64,000 nucleotides of DNA from an uncultured candidatus Brocadiaceae bacterium (lineage in GTDB: Bacteria > Planctomycetota > Brocadiia > SM23-32). The stretch covers positions 20,985-84,984 of the forward strand of contig CAYSWA010000003.1 of NCBI GenBank assembly GCA_964434535.1, given 5' to 3'. How positions within the stretch are numbered: position 1 is the first letter of the stretch; each line of letters opens with the position of its first letter. Below the pieces are notes generated by a model, which saw only the letters and a list, made by a program, of their open reading frames with translations, searched no databases and was not told the DNA's origin. The position numbers were made by a program, and so were the translations under genes. Shown one piece after another: positions 35,251 to 61,092 of the stretch.

Positions 35251-36675
35251 ATGCCCGGGGAGTCCGAAGGGCGCGAAGAGCGCGTCATGGAGCAGTTGCG
35301 CGGGCACGGTCAGGAGCGGATGGTCTCCTACCTGGAGGAGGAGCTCGAGGGCGAGGAGCGCCAGCGCCTGCTGGAGCAGCTCGACGGGCTCGCGTGGCGG
35401 CGGCTGGAGGCGTTCAGGCTGCTGCTGGGCACGCCGCCGACGGACGTGAGTTTCGCCGACGTGCGCCCCGCGCCGATCGAGCGGCTGCCCCTGAACGAAT
35501 GGCAGCAGGAAGCCGACCAGAAGGCCGCCGAAGGGGGCGAGGAGGCGATCCGGGCCGACCGCCTCGCCGTGCTCACCGTGGCCGGCGGCCAGGGCACCCG
35601 CCTGCGCTACGACCACCCGAAGGGGATGTTCCCCATCACGCCGATCCGCGAGAAAAGCCTCTTCGAGCACTTCGCCGAGGCGATCCTCGCCGTGCGCCGA
35701 CGCTACGCGTGCCGGCTGCCCTGGCTGGTGATGACCAGCCTGACCAACGAGGCGCAGACGCGCGAGTACTTCCGCGACAACGACTTCTTCGCCCTCGGCG
35801 AGGAGTCGGTGCACTTCTTCGTCCAGCGCCTCAACCCCATCCTGGACGGGGGCGGGCAACTGCTGCTGGCCGAGCGCGACCGGCTCCTGGTCGGGCCGGA
35901 CGGCCACGGGGGCGTCTTCACCGCCCTGCACGAGGCGGGCCTGCTGGAGATGCTGCGCGAGGGCGGCTGGGATCTGGTCAGCTACTTCCAGGTCGACAAC
36001 CCGCTGGTGACCGTGGTCGACCCCCGCTTCATCGGCTACCACCTGAAGCGCGGGGCCGACTTCTCCTGCAAGGTCGTGCCCAAGCGCGACCCGGAGGAAG
36101 GGCTCGGCCTGGCGGTCATGAAGGGCGACCACCCGGCCGTGATCGAGTACGTCGACGTGCCCCACCACATCGCCGCCGCCCGGCTGCCCTCCGGCCAGCT
36201 CAAGCTGCGCTACGGGAGCATCGCCATCCACATCCTCGACGTGCCGTTCGCCGAGCGCGTGGTCGCCGAGCCGGAGGGGCTGCCCTGGCACATGGCCCGC
36301 AAGCAGTACGAGATCGTCGGCCCCGGCGGCGAGAAGCGGCTCTCCGAGCCGGAGGCCTGCGTCAAGTTCGAGCGGTTCATCTTCGACGCCCTCCGGTTCG
36401 CCGACGAGTGCGCCTTCGTCGAGGTGCGCCGCGACACGGAGTTCGCCCCGGTGAAGAACTACGAGGGCGAGGACAGCCCGCAGACGGCCCGTGAGCTGCT
36501 CCAGCGCTGCTGGCTCCAGTGGCTGCGCGAGGCCGGAGCCGAGGTCGAGCTGCCGCGCGACTTCTGCGAGCCCGTCATCGAGATCAGCCCGCTCTACGCC
36601 GTGGGCGCCGCCGAGCTCAAAGAGAAGATCGAGCCCGGCTGGGAGCCCGAACTGCCGCTCGTGCTCGAACCCTGA
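35251..36675 (+). CDS. UDP-sugar pyrophosphorylase, UDPGP family (UAP1/UGP-like)
   Basis: LTVAGGQGTRLRYDHPKGMF, LVMTS, YFQVDN, MKGDHPAVIEY. Alternative start MEQLRGH at 35287. Confidence 0.8.
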   Translation: MPGESEGREERVMEQLRGHGQERMVSYLEEELEGEERQRLLEQLDGLAWRRLEAFRLLLGTPPTDVSFADVRPAPIERLPLNEWQQEADQKAAEGGEEAIRADRLAVLTVAGGQGTRLRYDHPKGMFPITPIREKSLFEHFAEAILAVRRRYACRLPWLVMTSLTNEAQTREYFRDNDFFALGEESVHFFVQRLNPILDGGGQLLLAERDRLLVGPDGHGGVFTALHEAGLLEMLREGGWDLVSYFQVDNPLVTVVDPRFIGYHLKRGADFSCKVVPKRDPEEGLGLAVMKGDHPAVIEYVDVPHHIAAARLPSGQLKLRYGSIAIHILDVPFAERVVAEPEGLPWHMARKQYEIVGPGGEKRLSEPEACVKFERFIFDALRFADECAFVEVRRDTEFAPVKNYEGEDSPQTARELLQRCWLQWLREAGAEVELPRDFCEPVIEISPLYAVGAAELKEKIEPGWEPELPLVLEP

Positions 36676-36701
36676 GCATCGCCCGCGTGGAAGGGGGAGG
36701 C

Positions 36702-37622
36702 ATGCCCCGGTTCGTCTACTCCAGCCACTACTACTGCGACCTGGGGCACCACGTCTTCCGCACCGAGAAGTACCGCCTCCTCCACGACCTCATCGTCGAG
36801 GGCGGCCTGGCCGCGCCCGACGAGTTCCTCGCCCCCGAGCCGGCCACGCGCGAAGACGTGCTGCTCGTCCACACCCCCGAGTACCTGGACGACCTGCTCG
36901 CGGCCCGCCCGACCTCCCGCACGGCCCTGAGCGAGATGCCCATCTCGCGCGAGATCATCGGCGCCTTCATGCTCGGCGCCGGCGGCACCATCCTGGCCTG
37001 CCGCAGCGCCATCCGCGAGCACGAGTTCGCCATGAACCTGGCCGGCGGCTTCCACCACGCCATGCCCGACCGCGCCGAGGGATTCTGCTACATCAACGAC
37101 GTGGCCGTCGGCGTGCGCCGCGTGCGGGAGGACGGCCTGGCCCGCCGCGTCATGATCGTGGACTGCGACCTGCACCAGGGCAACGGCACGGCCGTCATCT
37201 TCGCCCACGAGCCCGAGGTCTTCACCTTCAGCATCCACGAAGAGGCCATCTATCCGCTGAAGCAGCGCAGCGACCTCGACGTCGGGCTGCCCAGCTTCTG
37301 CGCAGGTGAGCAGTACCTGCGCCGCCTCGCAGCGCGCCTGCCCGACGCGCTCGACCGGCACGAGCCGGACTTCGTCCTCTACGTGGCCGGCGCCGACCCC
37401 TACGCCGACGACCTGCTCGGCACGCTGATGCTGAGCATCCAAGACCTGTGGCGGCGCGACCAGGCCGTCCTCGGCGCCTGCGCCGAGCGCGGCATCCCGG
37501 CGGCGGTGACCCTGGCCGGCGGCTACAGCCCCGACGTGCGCGACACCGCCCGCATCCACTACGGCACGGCGCGCGCCATGTGCGAGCTCTCCGAGCGCCT
37601 CGCCGCCCCGAGCCATGGTTGA
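36702..37622 (+). CDS. histone deacetylase-family amidohydrolase (AcuC/HDAC-like)
   Basis: GGFHHA, FCYINDVAV, IVDCDLHQGNGT, GGGY-like zinc-site motifs. GGGGGAGG RBS. Confidence 0.85.
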   Translation: MPRFVYSSHYYCDLGHHVFRTEKYRLLHDLIVEGGLAAPDEFLAPEPATREDVLLVHTPEYLDDLLAARPTSRTALSEMPISREIIGAFMLGAGGTILACRSAIREHEFAMNLAGGFHHAMPDRAEGFCYINDVAVGVRRVREDGLARRVMIVDCDLHQGNGTAVIFAHEPEVFTFSIHEEAIYPLKQRSDLDVGLPSFCAGEQYLRRLAARLPDALDRHEPDFVLYVAGADPYADDLLGTLMLSIQDLWRRDQAVLGACAERGIPAAVTLAGGYSPDVRDTARIHYGTARAMCELSERLAAPSHG

Positions 37623-38379
37623 GACCACCGCCCGCCCGATCGCGGCCCTGCGCGCGGCCTTCGAGGCGGGGCTCGATTGGCTCTACCCCCGGCACTGTTA
37701 CCACTGCGGCCGCTCGCTCGCGCACGTCCGCTCGCAGATGCTCTGCCGCCGGTGCCTGGCGGAGCTGGAAGACCTGCGCGTGAGCGGGGCGCTCTGCGCC
37801 ACATGCGGCCTGCCGCTGGCGGGCGAGCCGGCCCCCGAACTGGTCTGCATGGCATGCCGCGTCGAGCGGCGGCACTTCGAGCGGGCCCGGGCCTTCGTCG
37901 CCTACGCCGGTCCGGCCGCCTCCCTGATCCGCGCCTACAAGTTCGACGGCGACTACATGCTCGGCCCGCGCGCTCTGCGGGCGATGATGGACCGGGGCTG
38001 GACGCCGCCGGACGTCGAGCCGGCCCACCTGGTGGTGCCCGTGCCCCTGCACCGGCGGCGCCGGCGGGAGCGCGGCTACGACCAGGCCCTGCTGCTGGCG
38101 GAAGTGGTGGCCGAGCGGATCGGCGGCGAGTTGCGCCCGCGCGTGCTCGCCCGCACGCGCTACACCTCGCAGCAGGCGCTGCTGCCGATGGGCCGCAGGT
38201 GGGACAACGTGCGGGCTGCGTTCGCCGCGCGGCGTCCCGACCAGGTCGAGGGGCGGAGCGTGCTGCTGGTGGACGACGTGCTGACCACGGGGGTGACGGC
38301 CGACGAATGCGCGCGGGAGCTGAAGGCGGCCGGCGCCGCCCGCGTCCACGTCCTCACCCTCGCCCGCACCGCACCGTGA
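37615..38379 (+). CDS. comF: ComF family protein (phosphoribosyltransferase-like, N-terminal zinc ribbon)
   Basis: CxxC...CxxC N-terminus and PRTase motif VLLVDDVLTTGVT. Confidence 0.8.
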   Translation: MVETTARPIAALRAAFEAGLDWLYPRHCYHCGRSLAHVRSQMLCRRCLAELEDLRVSGALCATCGLPLAGEPAPELVCMACRVERRHFERARAFVAYAGPAASLIRAYKFDGDYMLGPRALRAMMDRGWTPPDVEPAHLVVPVPLHRRRRRERGYDQALLLAEVVAERIGGELRPRVLARTRYTSQQALLPMGRRWDNVRAAFAARRPDQVEGRSVLLVDDVLTTGVTADECARELKAAGAARVHVLTLARTAP

Positions 38380-38414
38380 AGGCGCCGCTGTTCAACAGCC
38401 GGTTTGGATCTGCG

Positions 38415-38442
38415 ATTGACAAGGGGCCGCTCTGCTGTATAG
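38415..38442 (+). promoter_or_regulatory. sigma70-like promoter TTGACA-N16-TATAGT for the R-M pair
   Basis: Perfect -35, near-perfect -10, within a 100-nt AT-richer gap immediately upstream of the methyltransferase gene. Confidence 0.5.
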
Positions 38443-38480
38443 TGTATGCAACGACGAACGGATAAGGGACGGGATCGGTC

Positions 38481-40031
38481 ATGGCCACGCGACGGGCAAC
38501 CGAAAAAGACAGCAGTGCGGCTCCGTGCCTGACCGAAGCAGTTCACGCCGCAGGTCGTGATGCGGTTGCCCCGACCGGCCGGGGACAGAAGAAGGGCCTT
38601 GCGCAATACCTGACCCCTGCGCCCGTCGCGCGGCTGATGGCCGGCATGTTTGAGGAGCGTCGCTCGCGTGAGGTCTGTGTCTTCGACCCGGGCGCCGGCG
38701 CCGGCATCCTGACGGCGGCCGCCGTAGAGGCCGTCAGTCAGTGGACGAGTCCCCCTTCGCGGATCAGGGCTTCAGCCTTCGAGCTGGACGAGGACATGGC
38801 GCCCCGGATCCGCGATACGTTCCATCTCTGCGCCGAACACTGTCGCCGGCGGGCAATCGCCTTCACGGGAGAGCTGCATCAGGGCGACTTCCTGGAGAGG
38901 GCCTCTGCAGTGGTAGGCCGTCCCTTGTTCCAGCAGCGCCTGTCCCCGGCGGACATGGTGATCATGAACCCTCCCTTCCGCAAGATCCGCACCGATTCAC
39001 GGGAGCGCAGACTGCTGGAGAGCGTGGGGATCGAGACTTCGAACCTCTATTCTGGATTCGTGGCCCTGGCGATCCGCGCGCTCAGGCCGGGCGGCCAGTT
39101 GGTGTTCATCTCGCCACGCAGTTTCTGCAACGGGACGTACTTCCGGCAGTTCCGAGAGATGCTCTTGTGCCAGACGGCCCTGCGGCGCGTTCACCTCTTC
39201 GAGTCCCGCACGGAGGCGTTCCGGGACTACAGCGTGATCCAGGAGACAGTGGTGTTCCACGCGGTCAAGGGGGACTCGCCCGCCCCCGTGCGCATCACGT
39301 CAAGCCGGGGCGGGGAGGAAGACGAGATTACGTCGCGCCAGGTTGCCTTCGCAGAAGTGGTCCGGCCCGACGATCCCCGCAAGTTCATCCACCTGCCCAC
39401 CGATGAGGCCGGGCTGGAGGCCGGGCACAAGATACGGCTGCTGACACACTCGCTGCGGGATCTGGGCCTGCGGGTGTCCACGGGCCGCGTCGTGGCGTTT
39501 CGTGCGGCTGATCACCTTCTGGACAGTCGACAGCCCGGATCAGTGCCCTTGATACAGCCGGGTAACATCTGCTCTGGTCGCGTTGTCTGGCCTGACTACC
39601 GGCTGGGCAAACCTGCGGCGCTGGAGGCGAACGACGCCACGCGCGACCTTCTGGTGCCGGAGGGCACTTACGTCCTTGTGAGACGCTTCAGCGCCAAGGA
39701 GGAGCGCCGGCGGATCGTGGCAGGGGTCTACGAGTCCTGTGCCTGTCCCGGCTCCGCCGTTGCCTTCGAGAACCACCTCAACTACTACCACGCCCGCGGA
39801 GGCGGCCTGAACCCGGACCTCGCGCGCGGCCTCTCGGCCTTCCTGAATTCGACCGTGGTCGATCGGTACTTTCGGACCTTCAACGGTCATACCCAGGTCA
39901 ACGCTGCGGACCTACGTAGCTTGCGATACCCCTCGCTTGAGACGCTTGTGGCCCTCGGGCAACGTGTTGGTCCCAAGGAGATTGACCAGGGCGCCCTTGA
40001 CGCGGCAGTTGGGGAGGAGTGCTTTCTTTGA
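38481..40031 (+). CDS. gamma-class N6-adenine DNA methyltransferase (M.PstI/M.BsuBI-like) of a type II R-M system
   Basis: AQYLTPAPVARLM (motif X), VFDPGAGAGILT (motif I), MNPPF (motif IV). 516 aa. GC content visibly lower than the flanks. Confidence 0.8.
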   Translation: MATRRATEKDSSAAPCLTEAVHAAGRDAVAPTGRGQKKGLAQYLTPAPVARLMAGMFEERRSREVCVFDPGAGAGILTAAAVEAVSQWTSPPSRIRASAFELDEDMAPRIRDTFHLCAEHCRRRAIAFTGELHQGDFLERASAVVGRPLFQQRLSPADMVIMNPPFRKIRTDSRERRLLESVGIETSNLYSGFVALAIRALRPGGQLVFISPRSFCNGTYFRQFREMLLCQTALRRVHLFESRTEAFRDYSVIQETVVFHAVKGDSPAPVRITSSRGGEEDEITSRQVAFAEVVRPDDPRKFIHLPTDEAGLEAGHKIRLLTHSLRDLGLRVSTGRVVAFRAADHLLDSRQPGSVPLIQPGNICSGRVVWPDYRLGKPAALEANDATRDLLVPEGTYVLVRRFSAKEERRRIVAGVYESCACPGSAVAFENHLNYYHARGGGLNPDLARGLSAFLNSTVVDRYFRTFNGHTQVNAADLRSLRYPSLETLVALGQRVGPKEIDQGALDAAVGEECFL

Positions 40032-41005
40032 GTGAGCAAGGCCGACCGGCGGGGCCGAAGGGCGCCCGTGAGCGCATTCAAGAGGCCGTTGAGCTTCTGC
40101 GGGAACTCGGAATGCCTCCGGCCCAGCAGAACGAGCGCTCCGCCCTCGTCCTGCTGGCCCTTCTGGACCTGCGGCCGACCGACAGGTGGTCATCGGCGCG
40201 GCGGCCGATGAGGGGCGTGACCGAGATCATGCACTGGTTCGCAGAGCACTACGGCAGGGAGTATGCTCCGAATACCCGCGAGACGGTCCGACGCCATACG
40301 CTTCACCCCTTCCTGCAAGCCGGGTTCGTATTACAGAACCCCGACGAGCCGGATCGGCCTGTCAACAGCCCCAACACCGTCTATCAGATCAGTGAACCCC
40401 TTTACGATATTGTCATGAAGCGGGGTCGGCCAGGCTGGCCCCAGGCCCTTGAGGCTGCGCGCATGGAGCTGGGGTCATTGCGCGAAGCCTATGCCCGACG
40501 GCGCCAGGCGCACGGGGTTCCCGTGAAGACCGGCCGCGGCGCCGAACTGCGCCTCTCACCTGGTCCGCATAGTGAATTGATCAGGAGCATTGTCGAGGAG
40601 ATGTGTCCCCGCTTCATCCCCGGTGGTTCCTTGCTCTACGTCGGGGATACAGCCCGGAAGTTCGCCCATTTCGACGAGGAGGCCCTGCGGGCCTTGGGTG
40701 TTGTGCTTGGCGAGCATGGCAAGATGCCCGATGTCGTGGTCTACGATGAGGAGCGGGGCTGGCTGGTCCTGATCGAGGCTGTGACCAGCCATGGGCCGGT
40801 CGATCCGAAGCGCCGCGCGCAGCTGGCCGAGTTGTTCCAGGACGCCCGAGCCGGTCTGGTCTACGTCACGGCCTTCGCGAGCAGGTCCGCCGTGCGGGAG
40901 TACCTCTCCGAGATATCCTGGGAAACCGAGGTTTGGGTCGCCGATGCCCCCGGCCACATGATTCACTTCAATGGCGAACGCTTCCTCGGCCCATACGCTG
41001 ACTGA
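40019..41005 (+). CDS. type II restriction endonuclease, PstI/BsuBI-like (PD-(D/E)xK)
   Basis: 328 aa. Overlaps the MTase stop by 13 nt. Candidate catalytic core PDVVVYDEERGWLVLIEAVTSHGPVDPKRR. Size and gene order match the BsuBI/PstI pair; family assignment is from memory, not a search. Confidence 0.6.
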   Translation: MLSLSEQGRPAGPKGARERIQEAVELLRELGMPPAQQNERSALVLLALLDLRPTDRWSSARRPMRGVTEIMHWFAEHYGREYAPNTRETVRRHTLHPFLQAGFVLQNPDEPDRPVNSPNTVYQISEPLYDIVMKRGRPGWPQALEAARMELGSLREAYARRRQAHGVPVKTGRGAELRLSPGPHSELIRSIVEEMCPRFIPGGSLLYVGDTARKFAHFDEEALRALGVVLGEHGKMPDVVVYDEERGWLVLIEAVTSHGPVDPKRRAQLAELFQDARAGLVYVTAFASRSAVREYLSEISWETEVWVADAPGHMIHFNGERFLGPYAD

Positions 41006-41016
41006 ACCCGGCCGCG

Positions 41017-41454
41017 TCAGTCGCGCAGGAGCCAGCGGGCGGCCTCTTCCAGCTCGGCCAGGTCCACGTCGGTGTCCTTGCACGGGCCGTGCGGGCGCAG
41101 GTTGATCACCCCGATCGCCGGCTTGGGGAAGACGGCCTTCAGGCCCTCCTGGAGCTCCTTCTCGCAGGCGACGGCGACGACGGCCCGGATATCGCCGCTC
41201 CGGGCCAGCTCCAGCGCCAGCCGCCCCCCGGTGGCGATGGCGCAGCGCGTGCCGAGCCGCTCGGCCATCTCGACCACGTCCTTCACCTTGCAGCGCCCGC
41301 AGCGGCGGCACTTCGTGATGTCACCCGTCAGGCGCAGCTCGCACTCGCTGCTCTGAAGGCACGAGGGCACCAGGATGAGCAGTTCCTCCGGGCGGCACCG
41401 GGCGCGCCGCAGCCGGGTGAGCTTGCTGAGCAGCCTGACCATCGTCCGTCCCAT
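41017..41454 (-). CDS. cysteine-rich hypothetical protein (DUF116-like)
   Basis: CRRCGRCKVKD and several conserved Cys. Convergent with the R gene, 11 nt apart. Upstream of fmt. Confidence 0.45.
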   Translation of the reverse strand: MGRTMVRLLSKLTRLRRARCRPEELLILVPSCLQSSECELRLTGDITKCRRCGRCKVKDVVEMAERLGTRCAIATGGRLALELARSGDIRAVVAVACEKELQEGLKAVFPKPAIGVINLRPHGPCKDTDVDLAELEEAARWLLRD

Positions 41455-41474
41455 CGCTTCTTCCCCGTGTCCCG

Positions 41475-42425
41475 TCAGATGAACCGGTCGCCCGGCTCGA
41501 CGTTGTAGCCGTTGACGAAGTCGGCGGCGCCCATGGCCCGGCTGCCGGCCGGCTTGATGCGGGTGATGCGCAGCAGGCCCTCGCCGGTCTGCACCAGCAC
41601 GCCGTCGGCGTCGGTGGCCACCACCTCGCCGGGCCTGGCGTCGGCGGCCGGTGCGCCGTCGGCCGTCTCGACCTTTAGCAGCGTCACGCGGCGCATCCCC
41701 TCGGCCGTCTGGAACTCGCAGTAGGCGCCGGGCCAGGGCGTAAGGCCGCGCACGTGGTTGCGGACACCCTCGGCCGGCAGCCCCCAGTTCAGCTTGCCGT
41801 CGGCCTTGCTGAGCTTGCGGGCGAAGAACGGCGTCTCGGCCGGCTGTTGCTCCTCGGGCACCTCCTCCCCGGCGTCCAGGCGGCCCAGCACGTCGACGAG
41901 GAGCCCGGCGCCGAGCCGGGCCAGCCGCTCCTCCAGCTGGCCGGCCGTCTCGTCCGGCTCGATCGCGACCTCACGTCGGGCGAGGACGGGGCCGGCGTCG
42001 AGCCTGGGCACGACGCGGATGACGCTCACGCCGGTGGTCCGCTCGCCCCGCATCAGCGCCCAGTTCACCGGCGCCGCGCCCCGGTAGGCGGGCAGCAGCG
42101 AGGCGTGCAGGTTCACCAACCCCCGGCCCGTCACGCCGAGCAGCTCCTCGGAGAGGATAGCCCCGAAGGCGACCACCACGCCGAGCTCTGCCCGGAGGGC
42201 GCGCAGCCGGGCGACCGACTCGACCGCGTTCACGTCCTCGGGCTGGCGCACCGGCAGGCCGAGCTCGAAAGCGGCCGACTTGACGGCGGTCGGCTGGGGC
42301 CGCCGGCCGCGCCCGCTCGGGCGGTCGGGGCGGGTCACCACGGCGGCGATCCGGTGGCCGGCCGCGTGGAGCGCCCGCAGGCTCGGCACGGCGAAGTCCG
42401 GGCTCCCGAAGAACAGCAGCCTCAT
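41475..42425 (-). CDS. fmt: methionyl-tRNA formyltransferase
   Basis: MRLLFFGSPDFAVPSL, NLHASLLPAYRGAAP (SLLP motif), C-terminal domain. Confidence 0.9.
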   Translation of the reverse strand: MRLLFFGSPDFAVPSLRALHAAGHRIAAVVTRPDRPSGRGRRPQPTAVKSAAFELGLPVRQPEDVNAVESVARLRALRAELGVVVAFGAILSEELLGVTGRGLVNLHASLLPAYRGAAPVNWALMRGERTTGVSVIRVVPRLDAGPVLARREVAIEPDETAGQLEERLARLGAGLLVDVLGRLDAGEEVPEEQQPAETPFFARKLSKADGKLNWGLPAEGVRNHVRGLTPWPGAYCEFQTAEGMRRVTLLKVETADGAPAADARPGEVVATDADGVLVQTGEGLLRITRIKPAGSRAMGAADFVNGYNVEPGDRFI

Positions 42426-42454
42426 GCGCGCCCCTTGTCTGGCTGCGGCGCCGC

Positions 42455-42964
42455 TCAGCGCTCGGCCCCTGCGGCTTCCTGCTCCAGTCGGCGGAGCTGA
42501 TCGCGGAGCGCCAGGCGGCCGGCCGGCGGGATCTTGTCGATGATCAGGACGCCGTTGAGGTGGTCCAGCTCATGCTGCCAGGCGCAGGCGGCGAGCTCTT
42601 CGGCCTCGATCTCCACCCGTTCGCCCCCGAGCGTGTAGGCCACCAGCGCCACCTTCTCGGCTCGCGGCACATTGACCTGGACGCCGGGCAGGCTCAGGCA
42701 GCCTTCCTCGTGTTCCAGGTGGCCTTCGCGGGCGATGATGATCGGGTTGACGAAGACGCGCTGGCCCTCGTGCCTCAGCGCCGGGTCGAGCGTTACCACA
42801 CGGCGCGACCAGCCGATCTGCGCGGCGGCCAGCCCGAGCCCGGCGGACGCATACATGAAGTCCAGCATCTCGCGGGCGCGCTCGGCGACCTCGTCGTCGA
42901 TCTCGCGCACCGGTTTGCAGCGCTTGCGCAGCACCTGCGCCGGATAGCGCTTCAGCTCCATCAT
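42455..42964 (-). CDS. def: peptide deformylase
   Basis: GLGLAAAQIG, EGCLSLPG, HELDHLNG motifs. Start at MMELKRY. Confidence 0.9.
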   Translation of the reverse strand: MMELKRYPAQVLRKRCKPVREIDDEVAERAREMLDFMYASAGLGLAAAQIGWSRRVVTLDPALRHEGQRVFVNPIIIAREGHLEHEEGCLSLPGVQVNVPRAEKVALVAYTLGGERVEIEAEELAACAWQHELDHLNGVLIIDKIPPAGRLALRDQLRRLEQEAAGAER

Positions 42965-43035
42965 TCCGTCTCCGCGCGTCTGAAACGGGTCGAACAGCAC
43001 AGCCTAACCGAAACCACGGCCGGTAGCGAGCCCCC

Positions 43036-43109
43036 GGAAAATGGGGACAGTTCCCATTTTCAGCAAGAAAGGCACTTATGGCTCAAAATGGGAACTGTCC
43101 CCATTTTCG
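43036..43109. repeat. composite inverted repeat (two 24-bp copies AAAATGGGGACAGTTCCCATTTTC in inverted orientation, 23-bp spacer); MITE/REP-like
   Basis: Copy 2 is the exact reverse complement of copy 1, and each copy is itself palindromic. AT-rich. It supplies the last 11 codons and the stop of the Fe-ADH gene and sits 35 nt from the def start. Confidence 0.7.
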
Positions 43110-44221
43110 GTGAGGGCGGCGAGGGTCTGGCGCACGTAGGCCTCGTCGACCGGCACGGGGTTCGCCTTCGAGGAGCCGCTCCCGGTCGCGTAGTCCAGGA
43201 TGCGCTCCTCCCACTCGGGCGAGGGGTAAGGCCCGAGCTGCCGCCGCAGCCCCAGCCGCTCCTGGAGCCGCCGGAAGGTCTCCAGCGGGTCGGCGCCGAT
43301 CGCGTCGGCGAGCGCCCGGTACTTGTCCGGCGCGGCCTCCGCGTTCCGCTTCAGCACCGGCGGCATCAGCGCGGCGCAGACGAGGCCGTGGGGCAGCCCG
43401 TAGCAGAGCCCGACGGGGTGGGCCAGGCCGTGCACGGCCCCGAGCCGCGCGCTGCCGAGCGCGAGCCCGGCCATGTAGCTGCCCTCGGAGACGGCGGCCC
43501 GGGCCCCGATGTCGCCGCCGTCCTCGTAGGCGTCGGCCAGGTGCCCGGCGATCAGGCGGGCGGCCGCCAGCGAGAGCGCTTCGGTGGTGGGGATGGCGTG
43601 GACGGAGAAGAGCGACTCGACGGCCTGCACCAGCGCGTCCATGCCGGCGGCGGCCGTCACCTGCGGCGGGCAGCTCACCGTCAGCTCGGGGTCGGTGATC
43701 GAGACGGTGGGCATGACGCCCTCGGCGCGGATGCTCCTTTTCAGGTGCGTCCAGGGGTTGGTGATGACGGCGTTGCGGGTGACCTCGGCGCCGGTGCCGG
43801 CGGTGGTGGCGACGGCGACGTGGGGTAGCCCGGCGCCGGTGACCTTACGGGCGCCGTGGTAGTCGGCCGTGGGCGCCTGCTCGCGGGCGAGCGCGGCGGC
43901 CGCCTTGCCGGCGTCGATGGCGCTGCCGCCGCCGGCCTCGACCACCAGGTCGCAGCCGGCCTCCCGCAGGGCCTCGCGGGCGGCGTCCACCGTCTCCACC
44001 TCCGGCTCGGGGGGCACGCGTTCGAAGCGCTCCACCGCCACCCCGGCGTCCTCCAGCAGGGCTACCAGCCGGTCGGTGATGCCGACGCTGCGCAGCGCGT
44101 GGCGCCCGGTCACCAGCAGCGCGCGGGAGCCGAGCCGCGCGGCCTCCTTGCCCAGGAGCTCGATGGTGCCGAGGCCGACGTAGGAGGTGCCCGGGAAGCT
44201 CAGGCGCAGCGAGCGGCTCAT
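43076..44221 (-). CDS. iron-containing alcohol dehydrogenase
   Basis: [20 protein letters not shown] and GLPHG motifs of Fe-ADH. Start at MSRSLRL (382 aa); the longer upstream ORF is an R/G-rich extension. Confidence 0.8.
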
Positions 44222-47078: not shown

Positions 47079-47107
47079 ACTATAGCCCCGCCGCGCGGGG
47101 CTGTCAA
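47079..47107 (-). promoter_or_regulatory. sigma70-like promoter TTGACA-N17-TATAGT (minus strand) for apgM
   Basis: rc(47102-47107)=TTGACA, rc(47079-47084)=TATAGT. About 42 nt upstream of the ATG at 47037. Confidence 0.5.
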
Positions 47108-58194: not shown

Positions 58195-59379
58195 CTATTC
58201 GGTGGGTAAGGCGTCGCGTTGACTGTGTATCAGCTCGATCAAGTGCGCGTCCTGCTCCGGGTCGAGCCGGCAGTGGCGGGTGAGCACCTCGTCGAAGCCC
58301 AGATCGGTCTCGCCGCTGCGGCGCGCGACGGCCACGGCCATGGCCAGGCCGGCGGCGAACGCGCGGGGCTCGATGCCCTCTGCGGCGACGGTGCGCACGC
58401 CGTGCACGAGCCGTTCCCAGGGCTTCAGCTTGCGCATGATGCCCCGTGTGCCCCTCGCCACGCTGTCGCGGAAGACCGGGCAGGTCACGCGCCGGAACAC
58501 GAAGTCGCAGTAGTTCAGATAGACGCTGCGGTTCAGCGCCCCGCCGTGCTTGCCCAGCAGCGCCGGCGCGGCCTCGCCGTAGAGCAGACGGCGCCCGAGG
58601 GCCATCGCCTCGGGCTCGGAGGTCAGCTCATGGAGCGACCCTCGGCCCCGCAGCCTGCCCCAGCAGGCGAGCACGCAGTGCAGGCCGTTGTGCGTGAGCA
58701 GCTTCGCCTCTTCGAGGGCGCGGAAGCGCTCCGGCGGGTGGCCCTCCACGGCCTGCGGCACGGCGGCCAGGCCCTCCAGGGCGTGCTGCTCGGCGTGGAT
58801 GCCGAAGAACGGGTCGGCCAGCACGGCCCAGTCCAGCCCGGGCGCAACCGGCCGCAGCGGCGGCTCAGGGTCGGCCACCACCTTGGCCGCCCGTCCCATC
58901 ATCGTGTCGGCGACGATGAGCCGGTTGCCCAGGTGCTCTGCGGCTTCGCGCTCCACGGCCGCGCGCAGCTTCTCGGCGATGCCCAGGCCGTTCTCCCCGC
59001 AGAGCACGCGCAGGGGGCGGCCCGGCGAGCGCGCGCCCGCCGCGCCGGCCAGCACGGGGCCGAGCTCGGCCAGGTGCGGCTCGCCGACGACGGTGAAGAC
59101 GAGGTCCGCCCCGGCCAGCGCGGCGAGGGCCTCGTCGGTGACCGAGCCCGGCTCCTTCCAAAGCCCGCCCCCGACCTGCACGCTCAGGGAGTGGACGGCG
59201 GGGCCCGTGCGGTTGAACGCATAGGAGCGTTCGCAGGCCAGGTGCGCGATCAGATCGGCCTTGGGCGGGATGTCGACGTAGGTGAGCCGGCAGTCCCGGC
59301 CCAGCTCGGGACCGAGGAAGCCGAGCCCGAGGGCGCCGGCGCCGAAGACGACGCACTCGATGGCGGGCTTCTCGCTCAC
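58195..59379 (-). CDS. mannitol dehydrogenase-family protein (mannitol-1-phosphate 5-dehydrogenase-like)
   Basis: VVFGAGALGLGFLG (compare MtlD ALHFGAGNIGRGFIG), VLCGENG, LLTHNGLHC. GTG start at VSEKPAIE. Confidence 0.65.
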   Translation of the reverse strand: MSEKPAIECVVFGAGALGLGFLGPELGRDCRLTYVDIPPKADLIAHLACERSYAFNRTGPAVHSLSVQVGGGLWKEPGSVTDEALAALAGADLVFTVVGEPHLAELGPVLAGAAGARSPGRPLRVLCGENGLGIAEKLRAAVEREAAEHLGNRLIVADTMMGRAAKVVADPEPPLRPVAPGLDWAVLADPFFGIHAEQHALEGLAAVPQAVEGHPPERFRALEEAKLLTHNGLHCVLACWGRLRGRGSLHELTSEPEAMALGRRLLYGEAAPALLGKHGGALNRSVYLNYCDFVFRRVTCPVFRDSVARGTRGIMRKLKPWERLVHGVRTVAAEGIEPRAFAAGLAMAVAVARRSGETDLGFDEVLTRHCRLDPEQDAHLIELIHSQRDALPTE

Positions 59380-59405
59380 GGCGTTCTCGCGGGGAGGGGC
59401 AGGTC

Positions 59406-59972
59406 TCACTCGTCGGGCAGGCGGCCGCCCTGGGCGCGGCGGGCCATGTAGAGCAGGGCCTCGCCGACCTCGTCGGTGCGGATCAGCGGGCGCCAGGGCA
59501 GCAGCCAGACGCCGAACCAGTTCGTCCACCACCACTGGGGATGGCGGTCCATCAGGATCTCCCGTCCCGAGCCGTCTTCCATGCCCGGCAGGCCGACGCC
59601 CGGCCTCAGGCGCAGGTAGAGGTCATAGTGGTAGGGCCCGATGGTGCCCGCGGTGAGCAGGGGGGCGGCGAGCGAGGCCGGCTCCCAGCGCAGGTAGACG
59701 GCCTCGATGTCCCTGAAGCGGATGCGGCGCAGCCGGTAGCCGCCGAGGCCGCCCCCCGAGCCGGAGCCGTAGACGTCGAGGAAGTAGTCGTCGGTGACCA
59801 GCGCATCGTCGACGATGACGGCGCCTCGGGAGTGGACCTGGTCCCACTGGAACTCGAGGATCACGCGTCGGGCCTCGGGCGGCGTCCAAGTGCGCCCCGA
59901 CCGGGGGACGTAGGTGCAGCCCAGGGCGGCCAGGCAGAGCAGGGCGATCGCGGGCGGCCTTGCGCGTGCCAT
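59406..59972 (-). CDS. hypothetical lipoprotein
   Basis: Signal peptide with lipobox LAALGCT; Trp-rich C-terminus. No recognisable domain. Confidence 0.5.
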
Positions 59973-60046
59973 GCCTCTCGCTCCTCGGTTCGGGTCGGCT
60001 CGGGCCTCACGCCGCCGGGTTGGTCGGCGTCCACTGCCCGCCTCGG

Positions 60047-61092
<1,046 letters not shown>

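What the first reader, a model, noticed from the sequence alone, without database searches (positions are those of the whole stretch)
38400..41016. Lower-GC PstI/BsuBI-like type II restriction-modification island with its own strong promoter
Two co-oriented, overlapping genes. The first is a 516-aa gamma-class N6-adenine methyltransferase (Y-x-T-P leader, VFDPGAGAG, MNPPF). The second is a 328-aa protein with a PD-(D/E)xK-like core; size, order and motifs fit the M.PstI/M.BsuBI plus PstI/BsuBI pair. The unit sits 36 nt after comF and 11 nt before a convergent DUF116-fmt-def block. It has the best sigma70 promoter in the window (TTGACA-N16-TATAGT) and visibly lower GC and more A/T-ending codons than the surrounding ~70% GC, suggesting horizontal acquisition as a defence module. 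The recognition site is unknown; if PstI-like (CTGCAG), host DNA should be depleted of or methylated at that site.
Basis: partly seen in the sequence, partly recalled or inferred. Interest (0 to 1): 0.55.

Follow-up and report, generated by a model that had tools for sequence, protein, structure and literature searches.

The report
PstI-family restriction-modification cassette, horizontally acquired
This is an ordinary two-gene bacterial defence unit, a DNA methylase plus a matching DNA-cutting enzyme of the well-known PstI/BsuBI family, inserted between two housekeeping genes of a high-GC Planctomycetota-like genome; it is a new member of a known kind.

Summary
There are two co-oriented overlapping ORFs: M at 38481-40031 (516 aa) and R at 40019 or 40028 to 41005 (328 or 325 aa). 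A TTGACA-N16-TATAGT promoter lies upstream at 38416-38443.

R matches both Pfam BsuBI/PstI domains end to end (1e-46 and 2e-61). Its closest solved relative is SdaI (9e-71), and its AlphaFold model finds only SdaI (E 8.5e-32). It is 54-55% identical to the Stx2a-prophage enzyme type that a paper reports to cut CTGCAG. M has the gamma-class motif order (FDPGAGAG, then NPPF) and is 41-42% identical over its full length to the prophage and plasmid MTases.

Acquisition is well supported. GC3 is 0.77-0.79 against 0.93 +/- 0.04 for host ORFs (z -3.5 and -4.2). Seven related contigs keep the convergent DUF116/comF junction with no R-M genes.

Corrections:
- The promoter ties with two other sites for best in the window.
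- CTGCAG is depleted (8 against about 22 expected), but four other palindromes are more depleted, so the depletion is not diagnostic.
- R probably starts at TTG 40028, which gives the family-typical 4-nt overlap.
- R carries a unique Q97P change at an otherwise invariant position.

Specificity (probably CTGCAG) and nuclease activity remain inferred. Interest is low.

The parts
38380..41016 (+). Whole extra segment (2,637 nt) between the comF stop and the convergent DUF116 stop: promoter plus the M and R genes, with no mobility gene
   Evidence: GC is 0.651 against 0.73 in the flanks. Relatives L001, L002, L089, L107, L090, L094 and L097 have the same convergent DUF116/comF junction without M or R. 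There are no flanking repeats, tRNA genes or Rfam elements.
38416..38443 (+). Sigma-70-like promoter TTGACA-N16-TATAGT, 37 nt upstream of the M start codon
   Evidence: It scores 11/12. It ties with two other sites in the whole window. It contains no CTGCAG site. Function is inferred.
38481..40031 (+). M gene: 516-aa gamma-class N6-adenine DNA methyltransferase (motif I FDPGAGAG at residue 68, motif IV NPPF at 163, C-terminal target-recognition region)
   Evidence: It aligns over its full length with the MTases of homologous cassettes at 41-49% identity. The ATG at 38481 is the first possible start, because the open frame begins at 38466.
38905..38910 (.). The only CTGCAG site inside the cassette, a candidate self-target that the MTase would have to protect
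40013..40031 (+). M/R junction: GGAGG (40013-40017), GTG 40019, and TTG 40028 overlapping the M stop TGA (40029-40031) as TTGA
   Evidence: Sequence. Homologous cassettes have an M/R overlap of exactly 4 nt. GGAGG lies 10 nt from the TTG but only 1 nt from the GTG, so TTG 40028 is the more likely start (inference).
40019..41005 (+). R gene: BsuBI/PstI-family type IIP endonuclease, 328 aa from GTG 40019 or 325 aa from TTG 40028. N-terminal winged-helix DNA-binding domain (residues ~18-154) and C-terminal PD-(D/E)XK catalytic domain (~167-320; D238, E253, T256, H258, K235)
   Evidence: It keeps 113 of 117 positions that are >=95% conserved. The deviations are Q97P, L129Y, F195M and E268Q.

Best explanation
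A self-contained type IIP restriction-modification cassette of the BsuBI/PstI family was acquired horizontally. It sits in the 3'-to-3' gap between the convergent housekeeping genes comF and DUF116 of a ~72% GC Planctomycetota-like genome.

Proposed mechanism:
1. One sigma-70-type promoter (38416-38443) drives a bicistronic mRNA.
2. The MTase is translated first. It uses S-adenosylmethionine to put an N6-methyl group on the adenine of its target on both strands. The target is most likely CTGCAG.
3. The endonuclease is translated by coupling across the overlapping stop/start (TTGA) from a weak non-ATG codon, so it appears later and at a lower level than the MTase.
4. The endonuclease binds DNA through its N-terminal winged-helix domain and cuts unmethylated sites with its Mg-dependent PD-(D/E)XK domain. 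In PstI and SdaI the cut leaves 3' TGCA overhangs.
5. Host DNA is protected by methylation. Incoming phage or plasmid DNA is cut. Loss of the cassette would be penalised by post-segregational cutting.

Shown here: gene structure, family membership of both proteins, fold, conserved catalytic residues, atypical composition, and empty sites in relatives.

Inferred: promoter use, translational coupling, recognition sequence, cleavage position, and in-vivo activity.
For: - Family membership of R: both Pfam domains are matched end to end (PF17728 2-138/140, PF06616 1-154/154) and well above cut-off. PADLOC REase_II scores 1.6e-126 over 5-316/317. SdaI (2ixs) scores 9e-71. The AlphaFold model has pLDDT 87, and its only significant PDB match is SdaI at E 8.5e-32.
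- Conservation of R: 113 of 117 highly conserved positions are kept, including D238, E253, K235, T256 and H258.
- Family membership of M: PADLOC MTase_II scores 9.8e-150 over 25-511. Motifs I and IV are present in gamma order. M aligns over its full length with partner MTases.
- Shared architecture: M then R with a 4-nt overlap is seen in phage TL-2011c, plasmid pG5A4Y413 and two metagenomic homologues, all in unrelated neighbourhoods. A third homologue (L085) overlaps by 23 nt.
- Specificity lead: R is 54-55% identical to the Stx2a-prophage enzyme type and 40% to SdaI. PMC3893438 reports that type as biochemically CTGCAG-specific, with 98.8% of CTGCAG sites m6A-methylated in the carrier strain. 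The winged-helix motifs AQQNERSAL, YAPNTRET and PDRPVNSP are shared with the prophage enzyme and not with SdaI. R nests with that enzyme in a tree rooted on SdaI.
- Acquisition: GC3 z-scores are -4.2 and -3.5, and codon-usage z-scores are -3.8 and -3.1. Seven related contigs have empty sites.
Against: - No experiment exists: neither methylation, cleavage nor promoter use is shown.
- R has Pro at position 97, where all 116 other sampled family members, including SdaI, have Gln. The position lies in the helix predicted to contact DNA. R sits on a long branch (median 55% identity to hits that share 66% among themselves). Altered specificity or reduced activity is therefore possible.
- CTGCAG depletion in the window (8 observed against 22.1 expected, z -3.0) is exceeded by CAGCTG, CCGCGG, AGGCCT and CTCGAG. 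It does not identify the target.
- No terminator separates R from the convergent DUF116 (11 nt), which is awkward for a strongly transcribed unit.
- The relatives used for the empty-site argument are distant (~60% protein identity). The time of insertion is unknown, and insertion versus loss rests on composition.
Confidence: 0.85

Rival explanations
1. It is the same family, but the recognition sequence is not CTGCAG. It could be the 8-bp CCTGCAGG of SdaI/SbfI or a new variant.
For: The closest solved relative is SdaI, which cuts CCTGCAGG (the site is from established knowledge). The window enzyme is a long-branch member. It has a unique Q97P change in the putative recognition helix. From memory, family members with one specificity (PstI and BsuBI) share only ~46% identity, so percent identity alone is a weak guide.
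Against: R is clearly closer to the CTGCAG-type prophage enzyme (54-55%) than to SdaI (40%), and more so in the DNA-binding domain (50-52% against 31%). It has T256/H258/K235 like 116 of 117 clade members, where SdaI has K/K/R. Three of the 8 CTGCAG sites in the window are CCTGCAGG, so the octamer shows no sign of avoidance. The numbers are too small to be decisive.
Confidence: 0.13
2. The endonuclease is attenuated or dead, so the unit now works mainly as a DNA methyltransferase with a decaying partner.
For: Four deviations occur at positions that are >=95% conserved: Q97P, L129Y, F195M and E268Q. Gln97 is invariant in all other sampled sequences. The Pro codon CCC needs two changes from any Gln codon, so it is not a single sequencing error. 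Loss of R activity is a common fate of chromosomal R-M systems (established knowledge).
Against: The ORF is intact over 328 codons. 113 of 117 conserved positions, and all candidate catalytic residues, are kept. The model folds confidently (pLDDT 87). M is also intact.
Confidence: 0.15
3. The cassette is ancestral at this locus and was lost in the relatives, not gained by the window lineage.
For: Only distant relatives (~60% identity) were available. The DUF116/comF junction is variable in content among them.
Against: GC3 and codon usage of both genes are 3-4 sd from host genes. Seven of seven related junctions lack the cassette. The closest homologues of R lie in unrelated contexts in unrelated genomes.
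Confidence: 0.04

Closest known systems
EcoGIII-type 'BsuBI/PstI' R-M cassette of Stx2a prophages (e.g. phage TL-2011c, JQ011318) and related small plasmids (e.g. pG5A4Y413)
   Same: M then R on one strand with a 4-nt stop/start overlap and no C-protein gene. R is 54-55% identical over 310 aa and M 41-42% identical over ~470-494 aa. They share winged-helix motifs and the E-x-V-T-S-H-G-P catalytic core. CTGCAG m6A methylation and cleavage are reported for this type (PMC3893438).
   Different: The window proteins are divergent, long-branch members. M is longer at the N-terminus than the prophage version (516 against 459 aa). R has Q97P. The cassette is chromosomal, in a housekeeping region of a high-GC Planctomycetota-like genome, not on a phage or plasmid. 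R starts at GTG or TTG instead of ATG.
SdaI (PDB 2ixs), the rare-cutting CCTGCAGG endonuclease and the only solved structure of the family
   Same: The same two-domain architecture (winged-helix N-domain plus PD-(D/E)XK C-domain). Sequence E-value 9e-71, 40% identity; fold-search E-value 8.5e-32.
   Different: SdaI has K/K at the columns where the window enzyme and 115 other sequences have T256/H258, and R where they have K235. DNA-binding-domain identity is only 31%. The global TM-score of 0.47 indicates a different relative orientation of the two domains in the model.
PstI (Providencia stuartii) and BsuBI (Bacillus subtilis), the name-giving CTGCAG systems
   Same: The same Pfam families for R and the same class of partner MTase. 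Sizes are similar. From memory, PstI R is ~326 aa and M ~507 aa, and BsuBI R is ~316 aa and M ~501 aa.
   Different: From memory, and unverified here, the PstI genes are divergently transcribed while the BsuBI genes are collinear M then R. If so, the window layout is BsuBI-like and not PstI-like.
Fused M-R single-chain enzymes of the same family (PADLOC model PDLC03359, 840 aa; from memory, YenI of Yersinia enterocolitica)
   Same: Both window proteins match the two halves of this model (M 4.2e-116 over model positions 27-514; R 4e-121 over 525-839).
   Different: In the window the two parts are separate ORFs in different frames, with a stop codon between them.

Membership tests
BsuBI/PstI type II restriction endonuclease family (Pfam PF17728 + PF06616) | N-terminal BsuBI_PstI_RE_N (winged-helix) domain, full length, above the Pfam gathering score | tested here: met
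   158.7 bits against a cut-off of 27; residues 18-154 match profile positions 2-138 of 140.
BsuBI/PstI type II restriction endonuclease family (Pfam PF17728 + PF06616) | C-terminal BsuBI_PstI_RE catalytic domain, full length, above the Pfam gathering score | tested here: met
   206.3 bits against a cut-off of 27; residues 167-320 match profile positions 1-154 of 154.
BsuBI/PstI type II restriction endonuclease family (Pfam PF17728 + PF06616) | Conserved PD...E-x-V-T-S-H core and other near-invariant residues | tested here: met
   D238, E253, T256, H258 and K235 are present. 113 of 117 positions that are >=95% conserved are kept. Exceptions are Q97P (otherwise invariant), L129Y, F195M and E268Q.
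BsuBI/PstI type II restriction endonuclease family (Pfam PF17728 + PF06616) | Two-domain fold as in SdaI (2ixs) | tested here: met
   The AlphaFold model has pLDDT 87.2. Foldseek against the PDB returns 2ixs_A at E 8.5e-32 and probability 1.00 as the only significant hit. TM-score is 0.47 because the domain orientation differs.
BsuBI/PstI type II restriction endonuclease family (Pfam PF17728 + PF06616) | Cleaves CTGCA^G (or a site containing it) in unmethylated DNA | not testable with these tools
   Indirect only: R is closer to the CTGCAG-type enzyme than to SdaI. The site-count statistics are not specific.
M.PstI/M.BsuBI-like gamma-class N6-adenine DNA methyltransferase | Motif I (FxGxG) N-terminal to motif IV (NPP[YF]), with a long C-terminal target-recognition region | tested here: met
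   FDPGAGAG at residue 68, NPPF at 163, and ~350 residues beyond. Pfam Eco57I 1.1e-11 and N6_Mtase 4.4e-06, both above cut-off.
M.PstI/M.BsuBI-like gamma-class N6-adenine DNA methyltransferase | Full-length similarity to MTases that partner BsuBI/PstI-family endonucleases | tested here: met
   41-42% identity to the prophage and plasmid MTases and 43-49% to three metagenomic partners, over ~470-494 aa. PADLOC MTase_II 9.8e-150 over 25-511.
M.PstI/M.BsuBI-like gamma-class N6-adenine DNA methyltransferase | Methylates the adenine of CTGCAG | not testable with these tools
   This needs a methylome or a protection assay.
Type II R-M operon (adjacent cognate M and R genes) | M and R adjacent and co-transcribable, as in homologous cassettes | tested here: met
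   The ORFs overlap on one strand. The same M-then-R order is found in five homologous loci, with a 4-nt overlap in four of them.
C-protein-controlled R-M systems | A small HTH controller gene and C-box upstream of R | tested here: not met
   There is no room for a third gene between 38380 and 41016. No HTH family was found on M. This system is not of the C-controlled kind.
SdaI-type 8-bp cutters | SdaI-like residues at the catalytic-core columns (K251/K253) and a close DNA-binding domain | tested here: not met
   The window has T256/H258 like 116 of 117 sequences, and SdaI alone has K/K. N-domain identity to SdaI is 31%.
Fused M-R enzymes (PDLC03359 / YenI-like) | M and R in a single polypeptide | tested here: not met
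   They are separate frames, with a TGA at 40029-40031.

The most novel reading that the evidence does not exclude
The window endonuclease is a long-branch family member with proline replacing an otherwise invariant glutamine (Q97P) in the predicted DNA-recognition helix. It may therefore have a recognition sequence that differs from both CTGCAG and CCTGCAGG. That would make it a natural specificity variant in a family where only these two specificities came up in this work.
Probability: 0.06. Interest if true: 0.35.

Novelty: new member of a known kind. Interest (0 to 1): 0.13.

Why it matters
It matters little beyond annotation. It adds one divergent BsuBI/PstI-family R-M pair from an uncultured high-GC Planctomycetota-like lineage. 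It is also a clean example of a bare two-gene R-M cassette, with no integrase, repeats or tRNA, sitting in a variable 3'-to-3' junction between housekeeping genes.

Practical use: anyone trying to transform or clone DNA from this lineage should expect a PstI-like barrier and m6A at CTGCAG-like sites. The Q97P variant could be a modest test case for residue function in the family's winged-helix domain.

Tried and rejected
- Exact-sequence look-ups of R and of DUF116 found nothing, so the source contig is not on record.
- CTGCAG depletion as evidence for specificity was rejected. The depletion is real under shuffles (8 against 29.6) and under an order-4 Markov model (8 against 22.1). But CAGCTG, CCGCGG, AGGCCT and CTCGAG are more depleted, so it reflects general palindrome avoidance.
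- The search for mobile-element hallmarks around the cassette found none. There were only chance-level short direct or inverted repeats, no tRNA genes in the window, and no Rfam match in 36000-43500 other than a hairpin outside the cassette.
- I considered that Thr at the SdaI-K251 column means a dead active site and rejected it. 116 of 117 family members have Thr there, and they have Lys at 235 where SdaI has Arg.
- I considered a larger defence island and rejected it. The flanks are housekeeping genes (UDPGP, deacetylase, comF, DUF116, fmt, def, Fe-ADH). Other low-GC3 ORFs in the window gave no defence-related or mobility family.
- I could not obtain the PstI, BsuBI, M.SdaI or YenI sequences, or the 1992 BsuBI paper. 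Statements about them are marked as memory.
- I ran no further search on M, because the PADLOC match and the partner alignments already show it is full length and intact.
Full report
**1. What is in the sequence**

M is at 38481..40031 (+, ATG, 516 aa) and R is at 40019..41005 (+, GTG, 328 aa).
- The M frame opens only at 38466, so ATG 38481 is the first possible start.
- The quoted motifs are present: YLTP at residue 43, FDPGAGAG at 68 and NPPF at 163 in M; PD at 237 and EAVTS at 253 in R.
- Upstream, comF (DZR_2 + phosphoribosyltransferase domains) stops at 38379.
- Downstream, a convergent DUF116 gene (3.5e-40) has its stop codon at 41017-41019, followed by fmt and def.
- The gaps of 36 nt (comF stop to the -35 hexamer) and 11 nt (R stop to DUF116 stop) are as stated.

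**2. Promoter**

TTGACA-N16-TATAGT lies at 38416-38443 and scores 11 of 12. In the 13 kb around it only two promoter-like sites occur, against 0.3 expected from shuffles. A scan of the whole window shows it is not uniquely best. Sites at 47107 (-) and 968 (-) also score 11/12, with the optimal 17-nt spacer. Use of the promoter is inferred. The 101-nt leader region has no CTGCAG site.

**3. Composition**

The segment 38380-41016 has GC 0.651, against 0.734 and 0.728 in the 5-kb flanks. Among 41 coding-like ORFs of at least 250 codons, R (GC3 0.760) is the lowest and M (0.787) is third lowest. Host ORFs average 0.931 +/- 0.041, which gives z = -4.2 and -3.5. The likelihood of their synonymous codon choices under host usage is 3.8 and 3.1 sd below the host mean. 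The composition claim is confirmed.

**4. Identity of R**

- Pfam matches both family domains end to end: BsuBI_PstI_RE_N (1e-46, profile 2-138/140) and BsuBI_PstI_RE (2.1e-61, profile 1-154/154).
- PADLOC gives REase_II at 1.6e-126 over 5-316/317.
- The only related solved structure is SdaI (2ixs, 9e-71).
- An AlphaFold model built on 56 homologues has mean pLDDT 87.2. Its only significant PDB match is SdaI (E 8.5e-32, probability 1.00). Weak hits to Holliday-junction resolvases, NucS and PspGI fit the PD-(D/E)XK half, and weak hits to MarR-type regulators fit the winged-helix half. The global TM-score of 0.47 reflects a different relative orientation of the two domains.
- More than 8,000 database proteins match at E <= 1e-10. 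The best are only 54-62% identical.
- Against 116 family sequences, R keeps 113 of the 117 positions that are at least 95% conserved, including D238 and E253.
- The Thr at the column of SdaI K251 is not a defect. 116 of 117 sequences have Thr, only SdaI has Lys, and those same sequences have Lys235 where SdaI has Arg.
- The four deviations are Q97P, L129Y, F195M and E268Q. Gln97 is otherwise invariant, in SdaI as well. It lies in helix 84-101, which carries the invariant polar residues N85, R87, E88, R91, R92 and H96. By inference this is the recognition helix of the winged-helix domain.
- The Pro codon is CCC, two changes away from any Gln codon, so it is not a single base-call error.

**5. 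Identity of M**

- PADLOC gives MTase_II at 9.8e-150 over residues 25-511.
- Pfam gives Eco57I and N6_Mtase, both above their cut-offs.
- The nearest solved structure is distant (M.BseCI, 8e-4).
- The motif order is I, then IV, then a long C-terminal region, which is the gamma arrangement.
- M is 41-42% identical over ~470-494 aa to the MTases of the E. coli prophage and plasmid cassettes. It is 43-49% identical to the MTases next to the three closest R homologues examined.
- In a six-sequence alignment it differs at 27 of the 154 columns that are invariant in the other five. Most changes are conservative, and both catalytic motifs are retained (FDPGAGAG for LDAGAGxG, NPPF for NPPY).

**6. Gene organisation**

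- In phage TL-2011c, plasmid pG5A4Y413 and the metagenomic loci L083/L084 and L086/L087, M precedes R on the same strand with an overlap of exactly 4 nt. L085 overlaps by 23 nt. The neighbouring genes are different in every case.
- In the window, TTG 40028 overlaps the M stop TGA (40029-40031) as TTGA, and GGAGG (40013-40017) lies 10 nt upstream of it. The GTG at 40019 is only 1 nt from that GGAGG.
- I therefore think R starts at TTG 40028 (325 aa). This is an inference.
- There is no room for a controller gene, no HTH family on M, and no target site in the promoter. The likely control is therefore the simple one: M first, then R by translational coupling from a weak start codon.

**7. Acquisition**

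The nearest genomes are MAGs labelled Brocadiaceae, Brocadiia or Planctomycetota, at only ~60% Fmt identity. The synteny def-fmt-DUF116 followed by convergent comF-deacetylase-UDPGP is kept in the relatives, with these junctions:

| Locus | DUF116/comF junction |
|---|---|
| L001 | the two stops overlap |
| L002 | 123-nt gap |
| L089 | ~150-nt gap |
| L107 | ~10-nt gap |
| L090 | ~720 nt, with a weak sub-threshold IS200-like match |
| L094, L097 | ~570 nt, holding an FKBP isomerase gene |

None of the 101 fetched loci has an M or R match. In the window both flanking genes are intact to the last residue, with ComF ending ...LTLARTAP as in L002. The cassette has no flanking repeats, tRNA gene or integrase. 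So it is a bare insertion into a junction that carries different cargo in different lineages. Furuta et al. (PMC2853133) describe several mobile forms of R-M systems. This one shows none of their repeat or integrase hallmarks.

**8. Recognition sequence**

- The prophage enzyme type is reported to be biochemically CTGCAG-specific. In the carrier strain 98.8% of CTGCAG sites are m6A-methylated, against none in a strain that lacks the cassette (PMC3893438).
- The window R is 54-55% identical to that type and 40% to SdaI. In the DNA-binding domain the figures are 50-52% and 31%.
- It shares the motifs AQQNERSAL, YAPNTRET and PDRPVNSP with the prophage enzyme, while SdaI differs at all three.
- In a neighbour-joining tree rooted on SdaI it falls inside a 20-member clade with the prophage enzyme.
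- CTGCAG is therefore the most likely target, at about 0.7 in my estimate. The long branch and Q97P leave room for doubt.
- Site counts do not settle it. CTGCAG occurs 8 times against 29.6 +/- 5.4 in shuffles and against 22.1 under an order-4 Markov model (z -3.0). But CAGCTG (4 against 37.5), CCGCGG, AGGCCT and CTCGAG are more depleted.
- Three of the 8 sites are CCTGCAGG, so the octamer is not avoided.
- One CTGCAG lies inside the M gene at 38905.

**9. Verdict**

This is a divergent but ordinary BsuBI/PstI-family type IIP R-M cassette that was acquired horizontally. It is a new member of a known kind and of low interest. The open points are nuclease activity and exact specificity, given Q97P.

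Noticed in passing
window 43038-43107 (between def and the Fe-ADH gene): Two copies of an AT-rich 23-nt near-palindrome (AAAATGGGGACAGTTCCCATTTT and its reverse complement) sit 47 nt apart and form a long hairpin. It gives sub-threshold Rfam hits to miRNA hairpin families on both strands. The motif occurs nowhere else in the window. It could be an operator or a bidirectional terminator.
   Followed up: partly
whole window: Several GC-rich palindromes are strongly avoided: CAGCTG 4 against 37.5 expected, AGGCCT 4 against 27.2, CCGCGG 33 against 77.6, CTCGAG 25 against 56.6, ATCGAT 1 against 10.9 (order-4 Markov). This suggests past or present pressure from other restriction systems that are not in this window.
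   Followed up: no
L094 817-1248, L097 1374-1856, L090 2551-3196: The DUF116/comF junction that holds the R-M cassette in the window carries other cargo in relatives. Two contigs have an FKBP-type prolyl isomerase gene (2.8e-24 and 6.5e-24). One has ORFs with a weak, sub-threshold IS200-like transposase match (E 0.0029).
   Followed up: partly
window 59286-60368 (+): This ORF has a coding-like GC pattern but GC3 of 0.77, as low as the R-M genes, and no Pfam match. It may be another foreign gene or not a gene at all.
   Followed up: partly
window 41006-41016: Only 11 nt and no terminator-like structure separate the R stop from the convergent DUF116 stop. Transcription from the R-M promoter may run antisense into DUF116-fmt-def.
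   Followed up: no
L086 4358-6004 (MTase of a homologous cassette): This partner MTase has an N-terminal extension of about 50 residues that the window MTase lacks. By eye it resembles an XRE-type helix-turn-helix, which would allow autoregulation. This was not tested.
   Followed up: no
database hits P0004, P0006, P0013, P0045, P0064, P0066, P0071 and PADLOC PDLC03359: Some family members are 367-559 aa, several of them annotated as adenine-specific methyltransferases, and carry the endonuclease domains. PADLOC also has an 840-aa M-R fusion model. Fused or mis-called M-R forms therefore exist in this family.
   Followed up: no
window 47107 (-) and 968 (-): Two further 11/12 sigma-70-like sites (TTGACA-17-TATAGT and TTGACA-17-TACAAT) occur in the window. 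This suggests the host uses a canonical promoter consensus despite its 72% GC.
   Followed up: no
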